DNA of 64,000 bases from Burkholderiales bacterium (GCA_947473125.1 CANJDH010000015.1:184-64183), one strand, 5' to 3'; positions 54,117 through 64,000 are shown, counted from the stretch's first letter. Program-made: numbers and translations. Notes: a model not told the origin generated them from the letters alone.

Positions 54117-57100
54117 TCACTGAATGGTCACGGTGAAAGTTACAATGCCGGTCGCCTGGGGGTTCAACTGGCCGCTGAAATTCCAGACAAAAGCACCGCT
54201 CGCTCCGGCTCCCGGGTCGGTCAGGGCACCCGTCACGAGGCCGCCGGGAGTGGTGTTGAAAGCCGGAATGTCGGGTGCCGAGCCATTGTTGGTACGCACC
54301 GTAAACGGCGGCGTCGAGTCACGAATCACCAGCGAGGTCAAGCGCTCGCTGCTGGCGTTGGTGTAGATGATGCGGTATTGCAGTCGGTCGCCCACCTTGC
54401 CGCTGTTGTTGGTGCCGAATCCGGCGCCGCTGCTGGCCACGCACGCCGCCCCGCCCGGGTTCGCCGCAGCATTGTCGAGATTGCACACCTCTTTTTGCAG
54501 CCGCAAGCCATCGCCTCCCGTGGCCGAGCCCGACAGCGTCGTATCGACGACGGTGAGCGTGGTGCTCAGCGCCGGCAATGAGTTCGTGTAGCTGAAGGTC
54601 CCGGTCACTGTCGCCTGATTCTGCGCCCCGAACGGCGCACTTGGCGGGATTGACTCCTTGACGATGATACACAGGCGCCGTCCGCTCGGGTCACCTGCAA
54701 TGGTGTCGTTTGGATCGAGAAGCACGGTGCTGCCTGCCACGCCCGAGCCGCCGATGACCAGTGCGGTTTCGGCCGGATCAATCGTGCCGTTGCAATTCGA
54801 ATCCCGGTAAATCACCTCGCCCCAGCCGGTCATGTTCGGCCGGGCTACCGCATTGACGCTGAACACCACGCCGCCAACCGACCCCGGCACGTAGGTGTGC
54901 GGGTAGAACACCACCTCGCCGGGCGGCGCCTGTTTGGTCTGGTCAGCTGTAAAGCGGTTGATCGGTACGTCGCCAAAGTTAAGACTTTGATAGCTCGTAT
55001 TGGCCGCAGGCGCAAAGCTGATCGAATCCGCCGGGCGACTGGCGCACGTGGTGCCGGTAGCGGTACGGCAATAGGTATACCCACTGTTCGGAATATCGGA
55101 AATGAGCTGTGTAGCCCCCGCGCTGCCACCGGTCGACAGATGACCTTGCGGGTTGGTTTCGATGACACACAAAAGCGCCGGCGGCCCGGCCGGTACCGCA
55201 AAACGATAGTCACCACTGACGTCGGTAGTAGTGGTCGCATAGATGGTCGCGGCGCAGTTAGTCAATTGCACCGTCACACCCTGGATGCCCTGCCCCAGGT
55301 TGGCGGGTTGCTGCGGATTGGCAGGCGCCTCGACCCCCTGGAGAACACCATCATTGGCGGTGGCGCCGGCCCCGCCGGTATCCCTGAACACCTTGCCCGA
55401 AATCAACGCACCTGAGCGCAGGCCGATATTCCAGTTCGACGATGGAACCAGCCCGATGCTCACCGTGGCGTAACCACCGCTTGCCGGCGCCCGGAAGAAC
55501 CACGCCGTCGGCGCAACCGCCACCGCGTTGATGGCGCTGTTGGTCACGACGATCTGGTAATTGCCGGGATCCACGTTATTGAACGTAAAGTCACCAGTCC
55601 CCGGCGTTAGCGCGACCGACTGCACCACCAGCCCGCCGGTACCCACGAGGTTGACAAAGACGTTGACGCCGGTCGCCCAGGTCTCGCCGGGTGCGCCCAG
55701 GTCAAGCACGCCGTTATCGTTGGAATCCACATACACCCTGCCGCTCACCGGCACACCGGCGCTGTACACGATCAGGTAGGCCACGTTCGACTGCGAGCCT
55801 GCGGTCGGTGTTTGCGTGGTGGTCACGCCCGACGCGAAGTTGGGCCAGCCCAGCGCCGGACTGACCGAGCTGCTGGTCACGTCCACCGTGACGCTACACG
55901 AACCGCCGCCCGGAATATCGCCGCCGGTCACGGTAAACGAGGTGTTGCCGCCGCTGGCAGTGCTGCTCACGCTGGCGCAGGTGCCGCGCACGTTGGGCAC
56001 CGCCGCCAGTTGCATGTTGGTCAGGCCATCGGTAAACGACATGCCGGTGAGCGTCACGCTATTCGGGTTGGTCACCGTAAAGGTCATGCTCGCCACCCCT
56101 CCAACGGGAATCGACGGCACACCAAACGCCTTGCTGATCGAAGGCGCTGCCGCGTTCACGGTCAGGTTGGCAACGTTGCTGGGCGACCCGGTGACGCCGG
56201 GGGTCACGACATTGGCGGTGACGCCAGTGGTCGAATTGGGCAAGGTGCCCGGCGTATCGGACGTCACCGGCACATCGATCCGGCAGGTGCCGGGCGTTGC
56301 ACTGACGCGCGCCGGCACCACCGCACTGGTGCTGCCGGTGCCGCTTAACCGGACGCCGATTGCCCCGCCTTGCGTGCCGGACCAGACCCCGGTACCTGCC
56401 AGGAACTGGACGGTGCTCACACCGCAGGTGTTGACCACGGTCCCGCTGGTCGTCACGCGCATGTTGGAGAACGGGTCGCTAAACATGACTGTCGCGCCCG
56501 AAGTTGCGATCGATGCATTGAGGTTGCTCAGCACAAACGACATGGTTGCCACGCCGCCGGCGGAAATGGTTGACGGCGTGAACGACTTGGTGATCTCGAC
56601 GGCCGATGGCGGCAACGGCGCTACCGTCAGGGTTGCATTGGTCAGGTTGCCGGTGCCGCTTGAGGCGCTCACGGTGCCGGTCACGTTGTTGAACGTGCCC
56701 GATCTGGTCGCCTGGACGTTGACGGTGATAGTGCAGGTGGTCGGCGAGCCGAGCGAACCGGCGCCGAGCAGGCCGTTGACCAGGCTGATGACATTGGTGC
56801 CGGGCGTGGCTGTCAGCGTACCGTTGCAGTTGTTGATTGCGCCCGACGGGCTGTCGATCACCATCCCTGCGGGCATGGTATCGGTGAAGGCAAGGGTGTC
56901 AATTTCGACCGTGTGCCGATTTTGGATCGTGAAGGTCAGCGCAGTGGTCTGGCCGATGGTGACGCTGCTCGGGCTGAAGGATTTCGCAATCGTCGGCGGA
57001 GCGGTCACGATCAGGGTTGCAGTGGCATTGTTGCCGACGTGGGTGCTCGATGTGATCGGGGTCGTACTGTTGTTGAACGCTCCCGGAACACTGGTTGTGA

Positions 57101-60100
57101 CCCTGACCGTTACCGTGCACACAGTACCGATCGCCGCAGCGCCTGCGAACGCACCGAGGGTCGCAATCACGCCGGTATCACCCGCAGAAATCGCGCCGCC
57201 GAACAAATCGGTGCGAGTGAACCCACACCCGCCGGCTTGGGCGGAAGTATTGTCGAACAGGGTCATGCCAGCGGGGAACACATCACGAAACGTCATGTTC
57301 GCTTGTGCGGCAAGCGAATTCTTGGTGATACTAAACACCAGGTCTGACTGCCCCCCCACCGCTATCGGGTTGGTGCTGAACGCCTTGGTAATCGACATCG
57401 GTCGTGTTGCCGTGCCGACCGACAATGTGGCGCTGGCCGGCGCGATCGGGCTGCCGGCATTGGTGGTCGTCACGCCGCTCGTCGCCACCGTATTGGTGAT
57501 ATTGACGTTGTTGACCGTGCTTTCTACGTTCACGGAAATAGTGCAACTCCCCGATGCCGGAATCGCCCCGCCGGTCAGGGTAAGCGAGGTGGCCAGTGCT
57601 GCAGAAGTTGCCGTTCCGGCACATCCGTTCACCAAATTCGGCGTCGCGGTGGTGCGCAGATTTGCCGGGTAGGCATCGGTGAGATCCACGCCTGTGATGG
57701 GCACGCCATTCGGATTGATCAAGGTCAACGTCATAACGGTGGCGGTGACAGCAGCGCCAACCGTCGAGGGTGTGAAGGACTTGCTGATCGATGGAGGCGC
57801 CATCACCGTCAATTGCGCCGTCGCCTGCGTTCCGCTGGCGCCGGCAGGTTGGGCCAGCGTGATTGCGCCGGTAGAGTTGGTGTACAGGCCCATGGCGCTG
57901 GCCGTCACTTGCCGGGTGTAGACGCAGGTGCCGCCGGCGGGGATCACAAAGTTGGTGCCCCCGGTACCAAGTGCGGCAAACGAGTTGCCGTTGGCGGCCG
58001 CCGTAAACGATTGCACCACGCAGCCGGCGCCCGTGACCGTGCCGCCCGCCGCTGCGGTGTTGGTAATGCCTGTCGGGTAGGTATCGGTAAACACGGTGGC
58101 CGCACTGGTGGCAGCAACGCTGTTCGGGTTGAATACCGATATCGACAAGGTACTCACGCCCCCTGCCGCAATGGTCGAGGGAGTAAACGTCTTGGTGGCG
58201 ATCACCGGCGCGGTGGTGCTTGCCGGCGGGTTGACCACCAAGGTGCCTGAGGTACTTGCCGTGCTGCCGGCGTTACCCGTCGTGGTGATGCCCGTGCTGT
58301 TGAGGAACACGCCACCGGTGTTGGATGTCACGTTCACGGTCAGCGTACACGTGGTATTTGCCGGCACGGTGCCGCTGTAGCTCAACTGGTTGTCGTTCGC
58401 AATGCCGGTAATCGTGCCCGCAGCCGCACACCCCGCGCCGCCAATGGCAGGTGTCGGCGTCGCGGTGTTGATCATCCCCGACGGATACACGTCCGTCAGG
58501 GCGACGCCGGTAACGTTCGCGCCTGCGGTCGGGTTGGGATTGAACAAGCTGATTGTCATCACCGATGCCACACCGGCGTTCACCGTAGTGGGCAAGAAGC
58601 TCTTGCTCACCCGCAGCGGTTGCAGCACGGTCAATGCGCTGCTCGCTGCCGCACCGCTGGGCGCATTGCTCGCGGTGATCGTGCCGGTACTGTTGAGGTA
58701 GATTCCTGCCGCGCTTGCCTGCACATTGACGCTGACCGTGCATGACCCGTTTGCCGGGATGGTGCCACCGCTGAGGGCCACGAGCGACCCGTTGTTGGCT
58801 GCGCTCACCGAACCTCCGCTGCAGGTGGTGGTGCCGGCCGGCGACGCGGTGTTGGTCATGTTCGCCGGGTAGTTGTCGGTAAACGCCCCTCCGGTGATCG
58901 CAAATCCGTTCGAGTTGCTCAAGGTAATCGTCAACACCGATGCGACGTTGGCACCCACAGTGGCTGGGCTGAAGCTTTTCACGACCGTCGGGGCGGCCAT
59001 GGCGCGCAAGATGTCGGTCGCGGTATTGCCGACGGTCGCCCCGGAGGTCACCGCGTTCGTCACGTTCACGTAGCTGCCAGCGGATGCTCCCGCAGCCACC
59101 GCGACGCTGAACACACAGGTGCCGGAAGTCGCCACGGTCGCGTTATTGAGGCGGATGGTTGCCGGTCCGTTTGAGGTCGTCAGCGTGCCGCCGCACATCG
59201 CAGTGCTTGCCGGCGTAACCACTGTCATGGTTGCAGGAACCGTCGGCAACAGGTCAGTCAACCCCACCTGGGTCATCGGTGCGGCATTCGGATTGGTAAT
59301 CGTGAAGGTCAGCGTCGAGGTGCCGCTGGGCTGCACCGGGTTGACGGTAAATACCTTGCTCACAAACGGTCGCGCAACGCTGAGTGAACTGTTTGCCGCC
59401 GCAGCGTTGCTGCCCGCATTCGACGTCGTCACCGCGCCGGCGCCTATGGTGTTGTTATACGAGCCCGCTGTCGCCGAAGCCCTGATGTTGACGGTGACTG
59501 TACAGGTGCTGTTGGGAGAGATTGTGCCGCCGGACAGCGCTATCGACGCGCCTGCATTTGCGGATGTCACGGTACCACCGGCGCAGGTAGTGGCGCCGTT
59601 GTCCGGCGTATCGTTGGTGTAAATGCCCGCGACCACCGGGTAGGTATCAGTGAACCCGACGCCGGTGATCGGCGTGGTGTTCGGGTTGGTGAGCGAAATA
59701 ATCAAGGTCGACGCGCCATTCGCCGCGACCGCGGGAGGAACAAACACCTTCGACACGGTCGGGGGCAGCAGTACGGTCAGGGTCGCGCTGGCCGGCAAAT
59801 TGTTGGCGCCGCCGGTCGACGTCAGGGCGCCAGCCGGCACCGTATTCACATAGGGTCCCGCCGCCGCCGCAGTAACCCGCACCGTGAGAATGCAATTGCC
59901 GTTGCTAGGCAAATAGAGATTTGTGGCGCTGAGGTTGGCCGCCCCCGCAGTGGCTGTCAGCGTGGGTGCTGCCGTCAATGGCACGCCATTGCAGGTGGTC
60001 GCCGCGTTCGACGGGTTCGCATTGACCATCCCTGCCGGATAGCTGTCCACCAGCGCACCGGCGCTGGCCGCAATGCTGCTCGGATTGAGAATCGTGAAGG

Positions 60101-63100
60101 TGATGGTCGCCACCCCGCCTTGCGCGATCACGCTGGGCGCAAACGATTTGCTGATCAACGGCGTCGGCAGCACATTGAGCACCGCAGTGCCCGAGGTTGC
60201 GCCGGTTCCACCGCCACCGGTCACGCCGGTGGTGAAATTCAGGTTGGCCCCGGACACCGAGGTGGTGACAGAGAATGTGATCGTGCAACTGCCCGCCGCC
60301 GGCACGCTGCCGGCATTGATGCTGATGCTGGACGCCCCGGCTGCCGCCGTGGGCGCGGTGGTCACCCCGGTGCAGGTGCCGCCGACAACTGGTGACGCGA
60401 GCACCATGCCGGATGGAAAGGTGTCGGTGAAGCTGATCGGCGAGACGGCTCCCGCCTGCGAGTTGGACAAGGTCAAGGTAACCAACGACGTCCCGCCGGC
60501 CGTGATCGACACCGGCGAAAAGGCCTTGCTGATGCCGATCAAGCCTGCCGTAAGGACCGCGCTCGTCGCATTACCGGTCCCGCCGTTGGTGGAGGTGACG
60601 CGCACACCGGCGGCGCCGGTGCCGGCGCCAGTATCGATGGTGTTGGTATAACTGCCCGCAACCGCTGTTTGCACGTTAACGGTGATCACACATTGCCCGC
60701 CAACGGCCAGCGTCAACCCGGCGCCGCCCACGGCGACCTGCGTACCACCGGCCGCTGCGGTGATGGTTCCTGCCAGAAGCGATCCCGCCGTACAGTTGGC
60801 AACCGCACCGGGTGTCGCGGTATTGACCAGATTTGCGGGATAGCTGTCGGTAAACGTCACGCCGGTCAGTGTCGACCCATTGAACGCCGGGTTGCTCACC
60901 GTGATCGACAGTACCGTCGCCGTGCTCAGCGCCACCGTCGAAGGAGTGAAGACCTTCGAGATTACCGGCGGCACGACCCCGATCAGGCTGGCAGTGGCCG
61001 CCGTGCCGATGCCGGCATTGCTGGTGGTGACCTGGCTGGTTGAGTTGAGGTGCGAACCGACCGTGGTGGTGGTCACGCCGGGAACGTTGATGGTGCAACT
61101 ACCCCCGGCCGGCACCGTCAACCCGGATACCGAGAAGGCCGTCACCGAAGGCGAAGAAGTGACGCCGTTGAACCCCCCGGCAGTGCAGGTACCCGTGATC
61201 GTGGTGGCCGCAAACGTCATGCTGGTCGCACCGGGGAACGTATCGGAGAAACTGGCACCGGTAACGGCTGATCCGTTCGAGTTCGAGATCGTGAAACTCA
61301 TCGTCGACAGCCCGCCAACCGGAATCGTCGAGGGCGTAAAGGTTTTAGCGAGGGTCGGCACGGCCAGGCCGCTTCGGTTGAGAGTGCCCGAACCCACCGA
61401 GGCGGGCGCATTGGCCCAGCTGGCACTGGCAGTGTTGATGTAGTCTCCGTTGGCGGCGGTAGTGACGCTAATGGTGAGGGTACAACTGCCCAAAGGCGCC
61501 AGCGTCACCGCCGACAGAGACACGCTGCCCGCCGCGCTGGTCGCGGTCGCACTCGAACCGGAGGTGCAATTGATGGTGCGGTTGGGCGAGCCCGCGGTGG
61601 TCATCGCTCCTGGAGCAACCGGATAGGTATCGCTCAGAGTGCCGCCGGTGAGCGTGGTGGTGGTGTTGGGGTTGGTGACGACGATCGTAAGCGTCGAGAT
61701 GCCGGCACCCGTGACCGAGACCGGATTGAAACTTTTGGCGATGGTGGCCGCACCGATCACCGTCAACTGCGCGACATTGGAACCGTTGCCCGCCGTGGTG
61801 TTGCCCTGATACTGCGCACCGCTGGTCTGGTTGTTGTAAATCTTCGCACCGGTGGTGACGGTACTGCCGACATTGACCGTGATCGTGCAGGTGGCGCCGG
61901 CGGCGATAGTCACGGCATTTGCGGCCCGCACGATCACGCCGCTGGTCGCGGCAGTGGTGTTGACCGGAATGGCGGGCACATTCGTAGCCGCGCCACAGCC
62001 GCTGAAACTCACCGACGGGGTCGCAGCGTTGAGCAAACCGGATGGGTAGGTGTCGCTGAACGTCACCTGATTGACAGCCACCGCATTCGGGTTGGTAATG
62101 GCGATCGACATGGTCGATGTCGGCGTGTTGGTTCCGGTCGTGCCCAGCGGCGGCACGTTGCCCGGCACGGTATTGGCCGACGCCTGGATCGCACCTGGGC
62201 TGAACGATTTCACGATGCTCAACTGGGCCACGCCCAATACAGCAGCCCCGGAAGTGCCGGTACCACCGTTGGCCGAGGTGACCGGGTTGGTCAGGTTCGA
62301 AAGATTAGTCGGCCCGGTAACGCTGCTGTTGTGGGTGACGGCGACGGTGATGGTGCATGAGCCGTTCGGCGCGATTGTCGCCCCCGGGTTCATGCCGATG
62401 GTATTGCCGCCGGCCACTCCGCCGGTCAGCGTGCCCGGGGTCGAGCCCGCAGTACACACTACTGAAGAATTGGACGGCGTGGCGTTGATCATCCCGGTCG
62501 GATAGGTATCTGCAATGACCACACCGTTCAGGTTGGACGGGTTGGTGGACGGATTGGTCAGCACCAGGCTGAGCGTCGAGGTGCCGTTGAGCGGGATCGA
62601 TGACGGCGAAAAGGTCTTGACGATGTCCGGCGGCCCGATCACGTTTCCCGTGGCGGCCGAACTCGATGTACCGAATTGCGTCTGGATCGTCTGCCCGCTG
62701 TACGAGATGCTGGCCGTGTTGGTAATCAGGGTGCCGGCCGGTGGCGCTGCGGGGCGACCGCTCAAGCCGTCGTTCAGGATGGTGTCAAACGCAACTGCCG
62801 TGGCTTCGCCGAAGTTGAGCGTGCCGCCTAACGTACCGTTGGCGCCGTGTCCAAGACGGAAGCGCACGCACGGCGCCGCCGAAGGGGCGCACGAAGGCGC
62901 CGAAGTGATGTATTCAGCGACGTCGGCATCCACCGTGTCGCTGTAGGTGGCCACTGCTGGGGCGACGGGCGAACCGACCGGCGTAGCGGTCACGCGCAGA
63001 CTGCCCGGCACATACGTGGTATTGGCGGGGATCGGGTCCGTGACCGTCAGGAACGTACCGGCGTCGATGCCCGTATTCGCCATCGAAATGTTCCAGCGAA

Positions 63101-64000
63101 TCGTGTCGCCCGGCGTCAAGGCGCCACCATTCAGGTCAGTGAGCGTCTTGACCACGTTGGGCGTGATGATCGGCACGTAGATATCGGTAGCCCAGGTCAC
63201 CACCTGCGGATAATAAAACTCGCCGTTGGTAATGAGCGAAAGTGTCGCCGACGTGGCGCCGTTGCCTACGATGCCCGTAGCCAGGTTGAACCGGTCCAGC
63301 TCGAAGCCGTAGTTGTTGTTGTAGGCAGGATTCCGGGAGGTAACCATGGTTCCCAAATCGGAGATGGTCGAGTTGTAGAAATTGTTGCCCGGGTTGTTGG
63401 CGTCCGAGATCGTGGTCGGCGACGGATTGGTGGACGAGCTGATCTGAAGCGTGTCGCCCTGATAGATGGTGGTACCGCGATCACCGTCGTAACCGACGGT
63501 GCCGACGCGCGTGGTGACGGTGCCGGAGTACGGTGTCAAAAAGCCGCTGACGGGAATATTGACCCCCAGGGTTCCGGTACCCTGAACAAGAGCGTAGCCG
63601 TCGTACACCACCAGGTTTCGCAAGGGCAAGGAATTATTGGCGTAGACAATCACCAGCGCCCAGCCGCCGAAATATCCGGGCACGGTGGGAGTCGCTCCGG
63701 TATTCGCCTGCAGGTTTGCGCCCCAGTAGGTTCCACTACCTCCGGCTTGAACCAGTGCGGTAACGTCCGCAAACGCAGCGTAGACATTGCCGCTTGCATC
63801 GATTTGCGTCGCATTGACCGCCGTATACCCCCCCATGGCGGGCGTGCGCAGCAATATGCTGCCGCGCTGGGCATTGGCCGAGTTCGCGCCCCAGTACATC
63901 CCCGCCCAGAGAATCGTCGACCCGCTCGCAAGATTGAGATCCGCACTCGACGAGTTGGTCAAGCCAAGTGAGGCCGCGCTGGGGTCGACATTGATCGCCG
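54117..64000 (-). CDS. Giant repetitive surface/adhesin-like protein (more than 3,290 codons in the window; 5' end beyond 64,000)
   Basis: The single frame stays open to the window edge: codons upstream of the TTG at 63962 read AINVDPSAASLG with no stop. The ORF contains an N-terminal region, 17 tandem DUF11-like domains, two SdrD-B/prealbumin-like domains and a terminal DUF11-like domain. Confidence 0.9.
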   Translation of the reverse strand, partial: AINVDPSAASLGLTNSSSADLNLASGSTILWAGMYWGANSANAQRGSILLRTPAMGGYTAVNATQIDASGNVYAAFADVTALVQAGGSGTYWGANLQANTGATPTVPGYFGGWALVIVYANNSLPLRNLVVYDGYALVQGTGTLGVNIPVSGFLTPYSGTVTTRVGTVGYDGDRGTTIYQGDTLQISSSTNPSPTTISDANNPGNNFYNSTISDLGTMVTSRNPAYNNNYGFELDRFNLATGIVGNGATSATLSLITNGEFYYPQVVTWATDIYVPIITPNVVKTLTDLNGGALTPGDTIRWNISMANTGIDAGTFLTVTDPIPANTTYVPGSLRVTATPVGSPVAPAVATYSDTVDADVAEYITSAPSCAPSAAPCVRFRLGHGANGTLGGTLNFGEATAVAFDTILNDGLSGRPAAPPAGTLITNTASISYSGQTIQTQFGTSSSAATGNVIGPPDIVKTFSPSSIPLNGTSTLSLVLTNPSTNPSNLNGVVIADTYPTGMINATPSNSSVVCTAGSTPGTLTGGVAGGNTIGMNPGATIAPNGSCTITVAVTHNSSVTGPTNLSNLTNPVTSANGGTGTSGAAVLGVAQLSIVKSFSPGAIQASANTVPGNVPPLGTTGTNTPTSTMSIAITNPNAVAVNQVTFSDTYPSGLLNAATPSVSFSGCGAATNVPAIPVNTTAATSGVIVRAANAVTIAAGATCTITVNVGSTVTTGAKIYNNQTSGAQYQGNTTAGNGSNVAQLTVIGAATIAKSFNPVSVTGAGISTLTIVVTNPNTTTTLTGGTLSDTYPVAPGAMTTAGSPNRTINCTSGSSATATSAAGSVSLSAVTLAPLGSCTLTISVTTAANGDYINTASASWANAPASVGSGTLNRSGLAVPTLAKTFTPSTIPVGGLSTMSFTISNSNGSAVTGASFSDTFPGATSMTFAATTITGTCTAGGFNGVTSSPSVTAFSVSGLTVPAGGSCTINVPGVTTTTVGSHLNSTSQVTTSNAGIGTAATASLIGVVPPVISKVFTPSTVALSTATVLSITVSNPAFNGSTLTGVTFTDSYPANLVNTATPGAVANCTAGSLLAGTITAAAGGTQVAVGGAGLTLAVGGQCVITVNVQTAVAGSYTNTIDTGAGTGAAGVRVTSTNGGTGNATSAVLTAGLIGISKAFSPVSITAGGTSLVTLTLSNSQAGAVSPISFTDTFPSGMVLASPVVGGTCTGVTTAPTAAAGASSISINAGSVPAAGSCTITFSVTTSVSGANLNFTTGVTGGGGTGATSGTAVLNVLPTPLISKSFAPSVIAQGGVATITFTILNPSSIAASAGALVDSYPAGMVNANPSNAATTCNGVPLTAAPTLTATAGAANLSATNLYLPSNGNCILTVRVTAAAAGPYVNTVPAGALTSTGGANNLPASATLTVLLPPTVSKVFVPPAVAANGASTLIISLTNPNTTPITGVGFTDTYPVVAGIYTNDTPDNGATTCAGGTVTSANAGASIALSGGTISPNSTCTVTVNIRASATAGSYNNTIGAGAVTTSNAGSNAAAANSSLSVARPFVSKVFTVNPVQPSGTSTLTFTITNPNAAPMTQVGLTDLLPTVPATMTVVTPASTAMCGGTLTTSNGPATIRLNNATVATSGTCVFSVAVAAGASAGSYVNVTNAVTSGATVGNTATDILRAMAAPTVVKSFSPATVGANVASVLTITLSNSNGFAITGGAFTDNYPANMTNTASPAGTTTCSGGSVSAANNGSLVALSGGTIPANGSCTVSVNVQASAAGIYLNSTGTITASNAPSGAAASSALTVLQPLRVSKSFLPTTVNAGVASVMTISLFNPNPTAGANVTGVALTDVYPSGMINTATPTPAIGGAGCAAAGTITGIANDNQLSYSGTVPANTTCTLTVNVTSNTGGVFLNSTGITTTGNAGSTASTSGTLVVNPPASTTAPVIATKTFTPSTIAAGGVSTLSISVFNPNSVAATSAATVFTDTYPTGITNTAAAGGTVTGAGCVVQSFTAAANGNSFAALGTGGTNFVIPAGGTCVYTRQVTASAMGLYTNSTGAITLAQPAGASGTQATAQLTVMAPPSISKSFTPSTVGAAVTATVMTLTLINPNGVPITGVDLTDAYPANLRTTATPNLVNGCAGTATSAALATSLTLTGGAIPASGSCTISVNVESTVNNVNITNTVATSGVTTTNAGSPIAPASATLSVGTATRPMSITKAFSTNPIAVGGQSDLVFSITKNSLAAQANMTFRDVFPAGMTLFDNTSAQAGGCGFTRTDLFGGAISAGDTGVIATLGAFAGAAAIGTVCTVTVRVTTSVPGAFNNSTTPITSSTHVGNNATATLIVTAPPTIAKSFSPSSVTIGQTTALTFTIQNRHTVEIDTLAFTDTMPAGMVIDSPSGAINNCNGTLTATPGTNVISLVNGLLGAGSLGSPTTCTITVNVQATRSGTFNNVTGTVSASSGTGNLTNATLTVAPLPPSAVEITKSFTPSTISAGGVATMSFVLSNLNASIATSGATVMFSDPFSNMRVTTSGTVVNTCGVSTVQFLAGTGVWSGTQGGAIGVRLSGTGSTSAVVPARVSATPGTCRIDVPVTSDTPGTLPNSTTGVTANVVTPGVTGSPSNVANLTVNAAAPSISKAFGVPSIPVGGVASMTFTVTNPNSVTLTGMSFTDGLTNMQLAAVPNVRGTCASVSSTASGGNTSFTVTGGDIPGGGSCSVTVDVTSSSVSPALGWPNFASGVTTTQTPTAGSQSNVAYLIVYSAGVPVSGRVYVDSNDNGVLDLGAPGETWATGVNVFVNLVGTGGLVVQSVALTPGTGDFTFNNVDPGNYQIVVTNSAINAVAVAPTAWFFRAPASGGYATVSIGLVPSSNWNIGLRSGALISGKVFRDTGGAGATANDGVLQGVEAPANPQQPANLGQGIQGVTVQLTNCAATIYATTTTDVSGDYRFAVPAGPPALLCVIETNPQGHLSTGGSAGATQLISDIPNSGYTYCRTATGTTCASRPADSISFAPAANTSYQSLNFGDVPINRFTADQTKQAPPGEVVFYPHTYVPGSVGGVVFSVNAVARPNMTGWGEVIYRDSNCNGTIDPAETALVIGGSGVAGSTVLLDPNDTIAGDPSGRRLCIIVKESIPPSAPFGAQNQATVTGTFSYTNSLPALSTTLTVVDTTLSGSATGGDGLRLQKEVCNLDNAAANPGGAACVASSGAGFGTNNSGKVGDRLQYRIIYTNASSERLTSLVIRDSTPPFTVRTNNGSAPDIPAFNTTPGGLVTGALTDPGAGASGAFVWNFSGQLNPQATGIVTFTVTIQ
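55800..62640 (-). repeat. Array of 17 tandem ~125-155-aa DUF11-like domain repeats inside the giant ORF
   Basis: Each unit starts I/V-x-K-x-F-x-P and contains T(L/I)xN(P/S)N...FTDxYP. Each unit also has exactly two Cys: xxC(T/A/S)GG and G(S/T)CT(I/V)TV. Confidence 0.85.

What the first reader, a model, noticed from the sequence alone, without database searches (positions are those of the whole stretch)
55800..62640. Seventeen tandem DUF11-like domains, each with exactly one conserved cysteine pair
Seen in sequence: 17 consecutive units of ~125-155 aa share the frame (I/V)xKxFxP...T(L/I)xNPN...(F/L)TDxYP...C(T/A/S)GG...G(S/T)CT(I/V)TV. Each unit holds exactly two Cys, about 30-45 residues apart. 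Established: DUF11 (conserved repeat domain) is found in the Chlamydia cysteine-rich outer-membrane protein OmcB and in archaeal surface proteins. Inference: one disulfide per domain would give 17 intradomain staples, which implies folding in an oxidising periplasm or extracellular space. That fits poorly with a classical RTX/T1SS adhesin route, and no GGxGxD repeats occur at the C-terminus. The units are diverged at the DNA level, so this is an old, maintained array rather than a recent amplification.
Basis: partly seen in the sequence, partly recalled or inferred. Interest (0 to 1): 0.6.

Follow-up and report, generated by a model that had tools for sequence, protein, structure and literature searches.

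The report
Cross-linked stalk of giant surface fibre
The 17 repeats are real and form the stalk of a 3,410-residue secreted surface protein; they belong to a domain family (DUF7933) that a 2025 paper already predicted to lock itself with an isopeptide bond and a disulfide, so the finding is an ordinary new member, though the gene sits in a poorly described fibre-plus-giant-barrel gene cluster.

Summary
One intact minus-strand gene (window 54117 to 64349, starting 349 nt beyond the window) encodes a 3,410-aa protein with 17 tandem units of 125-158 aa. Each unit has exactly two Cys, 26-47 residues apart.

The units are Pfam DUF7933 (PF25564; 17 stretches, E 2.7e-283), a sister family of DUF11/CLIPPER. 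The K of IxKxF, the D of FTDxYP and a later N are invariant in all 17 units. They match the Lys/Asp/Asn triad that a 2025 survey (PMC12617251) gives for a predicted DUF7933 isopeptide bond. That survey also predicts a disulfide in 97.2% of such domains, so "one disulfide per domain" is a known family trait.

The array is old: it has 1:1 positional orthology with a 17-unit homologue.

New context: the gene closes an operon with two tag- or catcher-bearing DUF11 proteins, an OmpA-like protein and a 2,353-aa protein ending in a large barrel-like module. The giant's last domain lacks its Asn-bearing strands, and the barrel protein starts with them. Earlier notes of this scan described the same cassette on other DNA.

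The parts
54117..64000 (-). Giant surface-protein gene (3,410 aa). The true start ATG is at window coordinate 64349, 349 nt past the window end. The signal peptide (aa 1-48, ...LLAVAPDAQA|QTV) lies outside the window.
   Evidence: An identical 3,398-aa product (start called at M13) is on an ENA metagenome contig.
63156..64000 (-). In-window part of the N-terminal head domain (aa 49-398), a divergent DUF3344-like module of unknown function.
   Evidence: It has no Pfam or PDB sequence hit itself. 13 of 36 aligned homologous heads match Pfam DUF3344. The AF2 model has pLDDT 88.9 and pTM 0.91, but no PDB fold match exceeds TM 0.25. At least 535 related loci occur across many phyla.
62637..63155 (-). 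Complete CLIPPER/DUF11-type domain (aa 399-571) with a Lys, an Asp and an 'ITNTASISY' Asn strand, plus the Cys pair 487/494.
   Evidence: TIGR01451 scores 37.5 bits against a cut-off of 24 at aa 411-453. The residues are read from the sequence. The tag HMM hits aa 538-551.
55749..62636 (-). Array of 17 DUF7933 stalk domains (aa 572-2867). Window spans of units 1-17: 62229-62636, 61755-62228, 61365-61754, 60975-61364, 60546-60974, 60168-60545, 59769-60167, 59376-59768, 58998-59375, 58623-58997, 58212-58622, 57801-58211, 57405-57800, 57003-57404, 56607-57002, 56151-56606, 55749-56150.
   Evidence: Pfam PF25564 gives 17 stretches at E 2.7e-283. Each unit has two Cys. K7, D41 and N102 are invariant. 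The AF2 model of unit 10 has pLDDT 97.6. The top Foldseek hit is 9IFR, a CLIPPER domain, at TM 0.74.
54528..55748 (-). C-proximal region (aa 2868-3274) with two SdrD_B/CnaB-like domains and three further Cys pairs.
   Evidence: Pfam SdrD_B at E 9.5e-16 with two stretches, and CarboxypepD_reg.
54120..54527 (-). C-terminal cut-short CLIPPER-like domain ('catcher', aa 3275-3410). It keeps a Lys (LRLQKEV) and an Asp (VIRDSTPP) but ends at ...GIVTFTVTIQ, before the Asn-bearing last two strands.
   Evidence: Pfam local matches stop at DUF11 position 51/114 and DUF7927 position 95/132. 30 diderm homologues all end 0-3 aa after the same strand, with an invariant Asp and no conserved Asn after it.

Best explanation
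The region encodes the stalk of a Sec-exported, 3,410-residue fibrillar surface (adhesin-like) protein of an uncultured Burkholderiales bacterium.

The layout, N to C, is: signal peptide; DUF3344-like head (presumed binding tip, ligand unknown); one complete CLIPPER/DUF11 domain; 17 DUF7933 Ig-like (CnaA-type) stalk domains; two SdrD_B-type domains; and a cut-short CLIPPER-like end domain.

I infer that each DUF7933 unit, once in the oxidising periplasm, locks itself twice. One lock is a spontaneous Lys-Asn isopeptide bond helped by the invariant Asp (K7/D41/N102 of the unit). The other is a DsbA/DsbB-dependent disulfide between its two Cys (unit positions about 59 and 86, the second lying in the strand before the Asn strand). 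The result would be a long stalk resistant to protease, heat and pulling.

A further inference, at about even odds: the protein has no anchor signal of its own, and its unfinished last domain is completed, possibly covalently, by the N-terminal two-strand 'tag' of a partner from the same operon. The partner would be the 993-aa protein or the 2,353-aa protein, whose roughly 850-aa C-terminal module looks like a very large outer-membrane barrel. That link would root the fibre in the outer membrane.

Shown: the domain architecture, the conserved residues, the fold class and the gene neighbourhood. Inferred: both bonds, surface exposure and the inter-chain joint.
For: Architecture and family.

Isopeptide triad: K, D and N are invariant in 17 of 17 units. 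They lie at the spacing of the published DUF7933 triad Lys973/Asp1008/Asn1068 (PMC12617251).

Fold: AF2 pLDDT is 97.6 with nine strands. The best PDB match is the CLIPPER crystal structure 9IFR (TM 0.74), followed by CNA and Gram-positive pilins.

Disulfide:
- Every unit has exactly two Cys.
- In 15 homologues, 165 of 176 full-length DUF7933 units have two Cys; eight have four, two have three and one has none.
- The survey predicts a disulfide in 240 of 247 isopeptide-positive DUF7933 domains.
- The signal peptide and DsbB in the genome give the oxidising route.

Not T1SS: Pfam lists no RTX family, and no ABC/MFP/TolC genes lie within about 10 kb on either side.

Old array: units are 1:1 orthologous with the 17-unit P0006 (50-82% identity against 35-54% for the next-best unit, apart from unit 14 at 36% against 35%).

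Operon: contig C15's end joins C1's start. The gene order is small DUF11 protein, 993-aa DUF11 protein, 2,353-aa protein, OmpA-like protein, giant. The same order occurs in a JGI contig.

Joint:
- A homologue of the barrel module lies directly upstream, on the same strand, in 51 of 80 head-domain loci from many phyla.
- 30 of 30 diderm homologues end right after the same strand, keeping Asp (30 of 30) and Lys (21 of 21 that reach that far).
- 35 of 45 barrel proteins carry [IVLF]xNxA just after the signal-like segment.
- A tag HMM built without this locus hits the mature N-terminus of the 993-aa protein (i-E 3e-6) and strand 8 of the giant's complete CLIPPER domain.
- Monoderm homologues carry LPXTG plus a membrane anchor instead.
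- One Gemmatimonadales genome fuses head, stalk and barrel in a single ORF.
Against: - No bond was observed. The structure tool gives no coordinates, so neither the Cys-Cys nor the Lys-Asn distance was measured.
- The barrel is inferred only from sequence features. These are the C-terminal ...YVRLRYKF signal-like strand, a weak OMP_b-brl hit at E 0.0078, and period-2 amphipathicity 3.7 times that of shuffles. There is no PDB relative and I had no model of it.
- In the closest relative with the full operon (L011), the barrel protein's tag reads I-R-A-T-A, without the Asn. A covalent joint at that position is therefore not universal.
- The operon has three catcher-type ends (small protein, 993-aa protein, giant) but only two tags, so the order of subunits is unresolved.
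- A more distant homologue (P0016) stands alone among housekeeping genes, with no barrel gene within 10 kb.
- How a folded, cross-linked 340-kDa chain would cross the outer membrane is unexplained.
- There are no expression or localisation data.
Confidence: 0.8

Rival explanations
1. The Cys pairs mainly form intermolecular disulfides that knit many copies into a cross-linked envelope layer, as in the chlamydial cysteine-rich outer-membrane complex (OmcB), rather than one intradomain staple each.
For: From my own knowledge: OmcB carries DUF11-type repeats and is disulfide cross-linked. The protein here is encoded beside a peptidoglycan-binding OmpA-like protein. No coordinates were available to prove that the two Cys of a unit are close together.
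Against: Cys occur strictly in twos at two fixed positions per unit, in this protein and in 165 of 176 homologous units. This is the signature of a paired, intradomain bond. The AFDB-based survey finds the two sulfurs in contact in 97.2% of isopeptide-positive DUF7933 domains. The unit model is very confident and compact.
Confidence: 0.07
2. It is a free-standing secreted or loosely attached adhesin. It would leave the periplasm by a general route (for example type II secretion) and would not be joined to the neighbouring barrel protein. The short last domain would simply be a compact seven-strand Ig variant.
For: The genome has at least five secretin genes. Homologue P0016 has no barrel gene within 10 kb. 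CLIPPER_2 domains are described as compact seven-strand folds (PMC12617251). L011's barrel tag lacks the Asn.
Against: The barrel gene is the immediate upstream neighbour in 51 of 80 loci across phyla. The end domain keeps Lys and Asp but never an Asn, while the partner's N-terminus carries the matching I-x-N-x-A hairpin. Monoderm homologues replace this end with LPXTG anchors. A natural head-stalk-barrel fusion exists.
Confidence: 0.3
3. It is a classical RTX/T1SS adhesin whose Cys pairs oxidise only after export.
For: So Cys pairs alone do not exclude T1SS.
Against: There is an N-terminal Sec-type signal peptide with an AQA|Q cleavage-type site. Pfam lists no RTX/HemolysinCabind match. The C-terminus is an Ig-like domain ending in a beta-strand. 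No T1SS genes flank the operon.
Confidence: 0.02
4. The long ORF is an assembly artefact or a decaying gene (collapsed or chimeric repeats).
For: The genome is a 209-contig MAG. The contig breaks 237 nt upstream of the gene.
Against: The frame is open for 10.2 kb, with every unit keeping K, D, N and two Cys. The units are too diverged in DNA to collapse. A 55%-identical homologue from another data set has the same 17 units in the same order. An identical product is recorded on an ENA contig seen in two samples.
Confidence: 0.03

Closest known systems
DUF7933 (Pfam PF25564), a predicted CnaA-like intramolecular-isopeptide domain family defined in 'A global survey of intramolecular isopeptide bonds' (Protein Sci 2025, PMC12617251)
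   Same: All 17 units match the model above its cut-off. They share the Lys/Asp/Asn triad spacing and have a co-occurring Cys pair, which the survey predicts to be a disulfide in 97.2% of isopeptide-positive members. They are tandem stalk units in a long signal-peptide protein of a Gram-negative bacterium.
   Different: Nothing essential differs. This copy has 17 units and a DUF3344-like head. The family has no experimental structure or bond verification, here or in the paper.
CLIPPER (DUF11, PF01345), crystal structure 9IFR from Acinetobacter silvestris fibrillar adhesin B9T28_05395
   Same: It is the best structural match of the unit model (TM 0.74). It has the same CnaA-like Ig fold, the same Lys-Asp-Asn logic, and an isopeptide plus a disulfide in one domain. 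The giant also contains one complete and one cut-short CLIPPER-type domain.
   Different: Sequence identity is about 16%. The DUF11 HMM does not resolve the 17 units (no stretches passing on their own). In 9IFR the disulfide is a CTTC motif in the last strand. Here the Cys lie about 27-47 residues apart, the second in the strand before the Asn strand.
Fibrillar adhesins with DUF3344-type N-terminal domains (Monzon & Bateman 2022, PMC9210967, cluster 23, 'ambiguous function')
   Same: The plan is the same: signal peptide, N-terminal non-repeat head, long Ig-like stalk. 13 of 36 homologous heads hit DUF3344.
   Different: This head falls below Pfam detection. No binding function is known, and no PDB fold match was found.
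Fibres built by donor-strand complementation with intermolecular isopeptide bonds: Clostridium perfringens BsaA 'exchange and lock' (PMC11580942); archaeal threads (PMC9715654); and, without covalent bonds, chaperone-usher pili
   Same: The proposed joint works the same way. An N-terminal strand or hairpin of one chain completes the incomplete Ig-like domain of another, and a Lys-Asn bond may lock it. A tip adhesin, a middle subunit and a membrane-embedded base would parallel FimH, FimA and FimD.
   Different: The fold family differs (CLIPPER versus TasA-like or pilin). No chaperone or usher homologue is present. The base is a roughly 850-aa barrel-like module fused to its own Ig-domain passenger. 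None of this has been tested experimentally.
Chlamydia OmcB
   Same: DUF11-type repeats, many cysteines, and a location in the envelope of a diderm.
   Different: By my own knowledge, OmcB is a small protein with irregular, numerous Cys used for intermolecular cross-linking. Here there is exactly one positionally fixed pair per domain plus an isopeptide triad.

Membership tests
DUF7933 (PF25564) | Match to the Pfam HMM above the gathering score | tested here: met
   922.3 bits against a cut-off of 26.5, with 17 stretches. A whole-genome scan finds 16 of the units, and only in this gene.
DUF7933 (PF25564) | Lys (first strand), Asp and Asn triad at the published spacing (K973/D1008/N1068: +35, +95) | tested here: met
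   K7, D41 and N102 are invariant in 17 of 17 units (+34, +95). The published triad is from PMC12617251.
DUF7933 (PF25564) | CnaA-like Ig beta-sandwich fold | tested here: met
   AF2 pLDDT is 97.6 with nine strands. Foldseek's top hit is 9IFR at TM 0.74; CNA 1amx and the pilins EbpB and LrpA also match.
DUF7933 (PF25564) | Isopeptide bond and intradomain disulfide actually formed (atoms within bonding distance) | not testable with these tools
   Structure prediction returns no coordinates. The only support is indirect: paired Cys conservation and the survey's 97.2% figure.
   DUF11 scores 44 bits for the whole protein with no stretch passing on its own, against 922 bits for DUF7933. DUF11-type signatures (TIGR01451) appear only at aa 411-453 and weakly in the last domain.
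RTX / type I secreted adhesin | C-terminal GGxGxD repeats and secretion signal, no N-terminal Sec signal, adjacent ABC/MFP/TolC genes | tested here: not met
   Pfam reports no RTX family. A Sec-type signal peptide is present. Neighbouring genes are NMT1-like, AsmA-like, OmpA-like, DUF11 proteins, a histidine kinase and a Wzy_C protein.
Fibrillar adhesin (signal peptide + head + repeated stalk + anchor) | Signal peptide, non-repeat N-terminal head, tandem stalk domains | tested here: met
Fibrillar adhesin (signal peptide + head + repeated stalk + anchor) | Recognisable anchor or sorting signal (LPXTG, T9SS CTD, PEP-CTERM, barrel) | tested here: not met
   No such family appears in the Pfam or NCBIfam results. 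The chain ends in a beta-strand...TFTVTIQ. Monoderm homologues do have LPXTG.
Barrel-anchored split-CLIPPER fibre cassette (undescribed in the papers I searched; noted repeatedly by this scan) | Gene for a giant protein with the conserved ~850-aa barrel-like C-terminal module next to the fibre gene | tested here: met
   It is present in this operon. It is the upstream neighbour in 51 of 80 related loci. The module family has more than 1,034 proteins.
Barrel-anchored split-CLIPPER fibre cassette (undescribed in the papers I searched; noted repeatedly by this scan) | Fibre protein ends in a CLIPPER-like domain that lacks the last two strands; the partner starts with them | tested here: met
   At sequence level only: ends; tags.
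Barrel-anchored split-CLIPPER fibre cassette (undescribed in the papers I searched; noted repeatedly by this scan) | The tag really completes the end domain between chains, and the module is a membrane barrel | not testable with these tools
There is only heuristic amphipathicity and a weak OMP_b-brl hit.

The most novel reading that the evidence does not exclude
The DUF7933 giant is the distal (tip and stalk) subunit of an undescribed kind of Gram-negative surface fibre. Its unfinished C-terminal CLIPPER domain (Lys and Asp present, Asn strands missing) would be completed, and in many lineages covalently locked, by the N-terminal Asn-bearing hairpin of the next subunit. The chain would end in a protein whose roughly 850-aa C-terminal module forms an unusually large outer-membrane barrel serving as anchor and perhaps as export pore. 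Diderms would thus use a split isopeptide domain where monoderm homologues use sortase and LPXTG.
Probability: 0.5. Interest if true: 0.75.

Novelty: new member of a known kind. Interest (0 to 1): 0.4.

Why it matters
The 17 doubly stapled domains are a textbook-size example of a family (DUF7933) whose isopeptide and disulfide bonds are so far only predicted. Unit 10 models at pLDDT 97.6 and would be a convenient construct for the first experimental proof.

The wider value lies in the context. The protein has no anchor of its own, and the comparative data tie it to a giant, unannotated barrel-type protein through complementary "cut-short domain" and "leading hairpin" features. It would also describe a fibre-assembly principle for Gram-negative bacteria that I did not find in the papers searched.

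Tried and rejected
1. I rejected filing the units as DUF11, because DUF7933 outscores it by far.
2. I rejected the T1SS/RTX route.
3. Sequence searches of the PDB found nothing for the whole protein, the head profile, the barrel region or the barrel profile.
4. The fold search of the head model gave only TM of about 0.2 to jelly-roll proteins (PNGase F, PHM, Cry toxins), so no function can be assigned.
5. hhalign of the unit profile against the last domain was not significant. The truncation argument therefore rests on Pfam local coordinates and the 30-sequence alignment.
6. The first genome-contig scan, with the single head sequence, confirmed no relative. The alignment-based scan worked.
7. 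I looked for model coordinates in the Python box to measure Cys-Cys and Lys-Asn distances, but none are provided.
9. The ORF at L009:12349-13056 (P0004) has no family hit and an odd composition, and I treated it as probably spurious.
10. Literature searches for a described barrel-plus-split-CLIPPER fibre returned only analogues: BsaA, archaeal threads and type V pili. The apparent 'DUF11' hit in the tafi paper was DUF1102.

Full report
**Observation.** The region 55800-62640 lies inside one minus-strand ORF that runs from 54117 to the end of the window.
- The window is G000:C15:184-64183, and the contig continues for 586 nt.
- The ORF reaches an ATG at window coordinate 64349 and encodes 3,410 aa, held as P0002.
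- The N-terminus has a positively charged stretch, a hydrophobic core (RVAVLLVAALGSLLAV) and APDAQA|QTV. I read this as a Sec-type signal peptide from the sequence; no dedicated predictor was available.
- Seventeen units of 125-158 aa start at aa 576 ... 2738 (window 55749-62636). Each holds exactly two Cys, 26-47 residues apart.
- The protein has 46 Cys in all. By position they form 23 neighbouring pairs; I did not test bonding for the six pairs outside the units.

**Family.** Pfam assigns all 17 units to DUF7933 (PF25564; 922 bits, E 2.7e-283). DUF11 scores only 44 bits with no separate stretch. Other matches are:
- a TIGR01451/DUF11-type domain at aa about 399-571;
- two SdrD_B (CnaB-like) domains near aa 2890-3090;
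- a weak DUF11-type signature in the last 136 aa.

In the genome, DUF7933 occurs only in this gene.

The alignment of the 17 units has invariant K7, F9, D41, C86 and N102.
- The only paper in the library that names DUF7933 is PMC12617251 (Protein Sci 2025). It created the family from AlphaFold-database hits of a detector for intramolecular isopeptide bonds.
- That paper gives the triad as Lys973/Asp1008/Asn1068 of its reference protein, which is the same spacing as here.
- The K of "IxKxF", the D of "FTDxYP" and the N before the last strand are therefore the predicted isopeptide triad.
- Its Table S4 reports a predicted disulfide in 240 of 247 (97.2%) isopeptide-positive DUF7933 domains. One disulfide per domain is thus a published family trait, though it is predicted and not measured.

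**Structure.**
- An AF2 model of unit 10, built on the 17-unit alignment, is very confident (pLDDT 97.6, nine strands).
- Its best PDB match is 9IFR, the CLIPPER (DUF11) crystal structure, at TM 0.74. The S. aureus collagen adhesin and Gram-positive pilins follow.
- K7, D41 and N102 fall in strands 1, 3 and 8. The second Cys (C86) lies in strand 7.

**Comparative support for a paired bond.** In 15 homologues, 165 of 176 full-length DUF7933 units have two Cys. Eight have four, two have three and one has none.

**Age and integrity of the array.**
- TRF finds no long-period repeat, and shared DNA segments are only 60-75% identical.
- A homologue with a 55%-identical head (P0006, 3,390 aa) has 17 units in one-to-one positional orthology. 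Identities are 50-82% against 35-54% for the next-best unit, apart from unit 14 (36% against 35%).
- The array therefore predates the split of these lineages, and the ORF is not a collapsed repeat.
- An identical product is recorded on an ENA contig seen in two samples.

**Head.**
- Residues 49-398 have no Pfam or PDB sequence match.
- A scan of species genomes with a five-sequence profile confirmed at least 535 related loci in many phyla, both diderm and monoderm. The nearest relative is an uncultured Burkholderiales MAG.
- Thirteen of 36 aligned heads match Pfam DUF3344. A 2022 adhesin survey lists that domain among N-terminal modules of "ambiguous function" (PMC9210967).
- The AF2 model is good (pLDDT 88.9), but no PDB fold match exceeds TM 0.25. 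The ligand is unknown.

**Surroundings.** The 78-codon fragment upstream of the gene is the end of an OmpA-like gene whose first 394 codons open contig C1. The two pieces overlap in ...SQR. Reading C1 then C15 on the minus strand gives one tight same-strand cluster:
1. a small signal-peptide DUF11 protein;
2. a 993-aa DUF11 protein;
3. a 2,353-aa DUF11/SdrD_B/RrgB-like protein;
4. the OmpA-like protein;
5. the giant;
6. an NMT1-type binding protein.

The order from the roughly 1,000-aa DUF11 protein through to the NMT1-type gene recurs in a JGI contig; the small protein lies outside the stretch fetched there. The same order up to the giant also recurs in genome G001.

**The barrel-like module.** The last roughly 850 aa of the 2,353-aa protein have no Pfam model.
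- They end in ...GFYVRLRYKF plus a short tail.
- They give a weak OMP_b-brl hit (E 0.0078).
- Their period-2 amphipathicity is 3.7 times that of shuffled controls, in some 40 segments.
- The module is very conserved (47-50% identity at E about 1e-245) in more than 1,034 database proteins. Those that carry a name at all are labelled only "DUF11 domain-containing", "SdrD B-like" or "uncharacterized repeat protein".
- It has no PDB relative.

I read it as a very large outer-membrane barrel. This is an inference from sequence features only.

**Link between the giant and the barrel protein.** I took this idea from earlier notes of this scan and tested it here.
1. A homologue of the module lies on the same strand immediately upstream of the head-domain gene in 51 of 80 loci. 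These come from Burkholderiales, Eisenbacteria, Pyrinomonadaceae, Gemmatimonadota, Luteimonas, Pedobacter, Moraxellaceae and others.
2. Thirty diderm homologues, including this protein, all stop 0-3 residues after a G-x-V-x-F-x-V-x-V strand. The Asp of the last domain is invariant, and the Lys is present in all 21 sequences that my window reached. No Asn is conserved after the Asp. Pfam local matches to the last domain stop before the Asn position.
3. In 35 of 45 barrel proteins with an intact 5' end, an [IVLF]xNxA hairpin follows directly after the signal-like hydrophobic run. A typical example is AGTPIDNTATA...SNTVRVVV. Chance expectation is about 0.05 per window. In this operon the barrel protein starts with GTAISNTAYITY...SNTVVA.
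4. An HMM of 33 such tags, built without this locus, hits the mature N-terminus of the 993-aa protein (aa 45-82, i-E 3e-6). It also hits strand 8 of the giant's own complete CLIPPER domain (aa 538-551, i-E 0.011). The tag is therefore the piece that the cut-short domain lacks.
5. Homologues from Actinoplanes and its relatives end in LPXTG-type signals followed by a membrane-anchor segment instead.
6. In one Gemmatimonadales genome the head, about 24 Ig-like units and the start of the barrel module lie in one ORF of more than 3,703 aa. This natural fusion has the topology the split model predicts.

**Caveats on the link.**
- The tag of the closest full-operon relative lacks the Asn (I-R-A-T-A).
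- There are three catcher-type ends for two tags in this operon.
- A distant homologue has no barrel gene nearby.
- Nothing shows how the chain crosses the outer membrane.
- I had no multimer model.
- Precedents for "exchange and lock" exist in other folds: BsaA (PMC11580942) and archaeal threads (PMC9715654).
- Two literature searches found no description of this cassette. That shows only that I did not find one.

**Verdict.** The finding itself is a new member of a known kind.

The more interesting point is that this giant appears to be the distal subunit of a widespread, unannotated barrel-anchored fibre cassette. Earlier notes of this scan described that cassette on other DNA. Here it gains three independent comparative supports: adjacency in 51 of 80 loci, the LPXTG swap in monoderms, and a natural fusion.

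Noticed in passing
L009:1249-8310 (-) = G000:C1, just beyond the window's right end: A 2,353-aa protein whose last roughly 850 aa form a highly conserved, barrel-like module with no Pfam model and no PDB relative. More than 1,034 database proteins share it at 47-50% identity, and those that are named at all are called only DUF11, SdrD_B or 'repeat protein'.
   Followed up: partly
Window 63815-64000 and beyond (C15:64535-64769) plus L009:1-1182 (-): An OmpA-like peptidoglycan-binding protein gene (about 470 aa: signal peptide, Ala/Pro-rich linker, helical region, OmpA domain) is split across the contig break between C15 and C1. It sits between the barrel gene and the giant only in this genus-level group. 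In most other loci the barrel gene directly abuts the head gene.
   Followed up: partly
L024:9826-20936 (+) (uncultured Gemmatimonadales MAG, contig of 3.5 Mb): One uninterrupted ORF of more than 3,703 aa joins the DUF3344-like head, about 24 Ig-like units and the first 250 aa of the barrel module. This is a natural fusion of what are separate genes here.
   Followed up: partly
L011:1401-8357 (+) (JGI metagenome contig, closest full-operon relative): The barrel protein's N-terminal hairpin reads GTVIRATAYVSY, with Ala where other loci have the Asn. Any covalent lock at that joint would be lost in this lineage.
   Followed up: no
L067, L081, L088, L089, L091 (Actinoplanes / Paractinoplanes): Proteins with the same DUF3344-like head end in a hydrophobic membrane segment with a basic tail; the LPXTG motif itself (LPTTG) is visible only in L091. 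The diderm homologues carry the cut-short CLIPPER end instead.
   Followed up: partly
control genomes: Among 14 well-known control genomes, DUF7933 matches above the cut-off only in Thermus thermophilus and Deinococcus radiodurans.
   Followed up: no
L009:11510-12193 (-): A small secreted protein (about 190 aa mature) with a single DUF11-like domain that ends before the Asn position (profile 6-93 of 114), followed by a Pro-rich tail. It has no N-terminal tag, so it may be a cap or an alternative tip.
   Followed up: no
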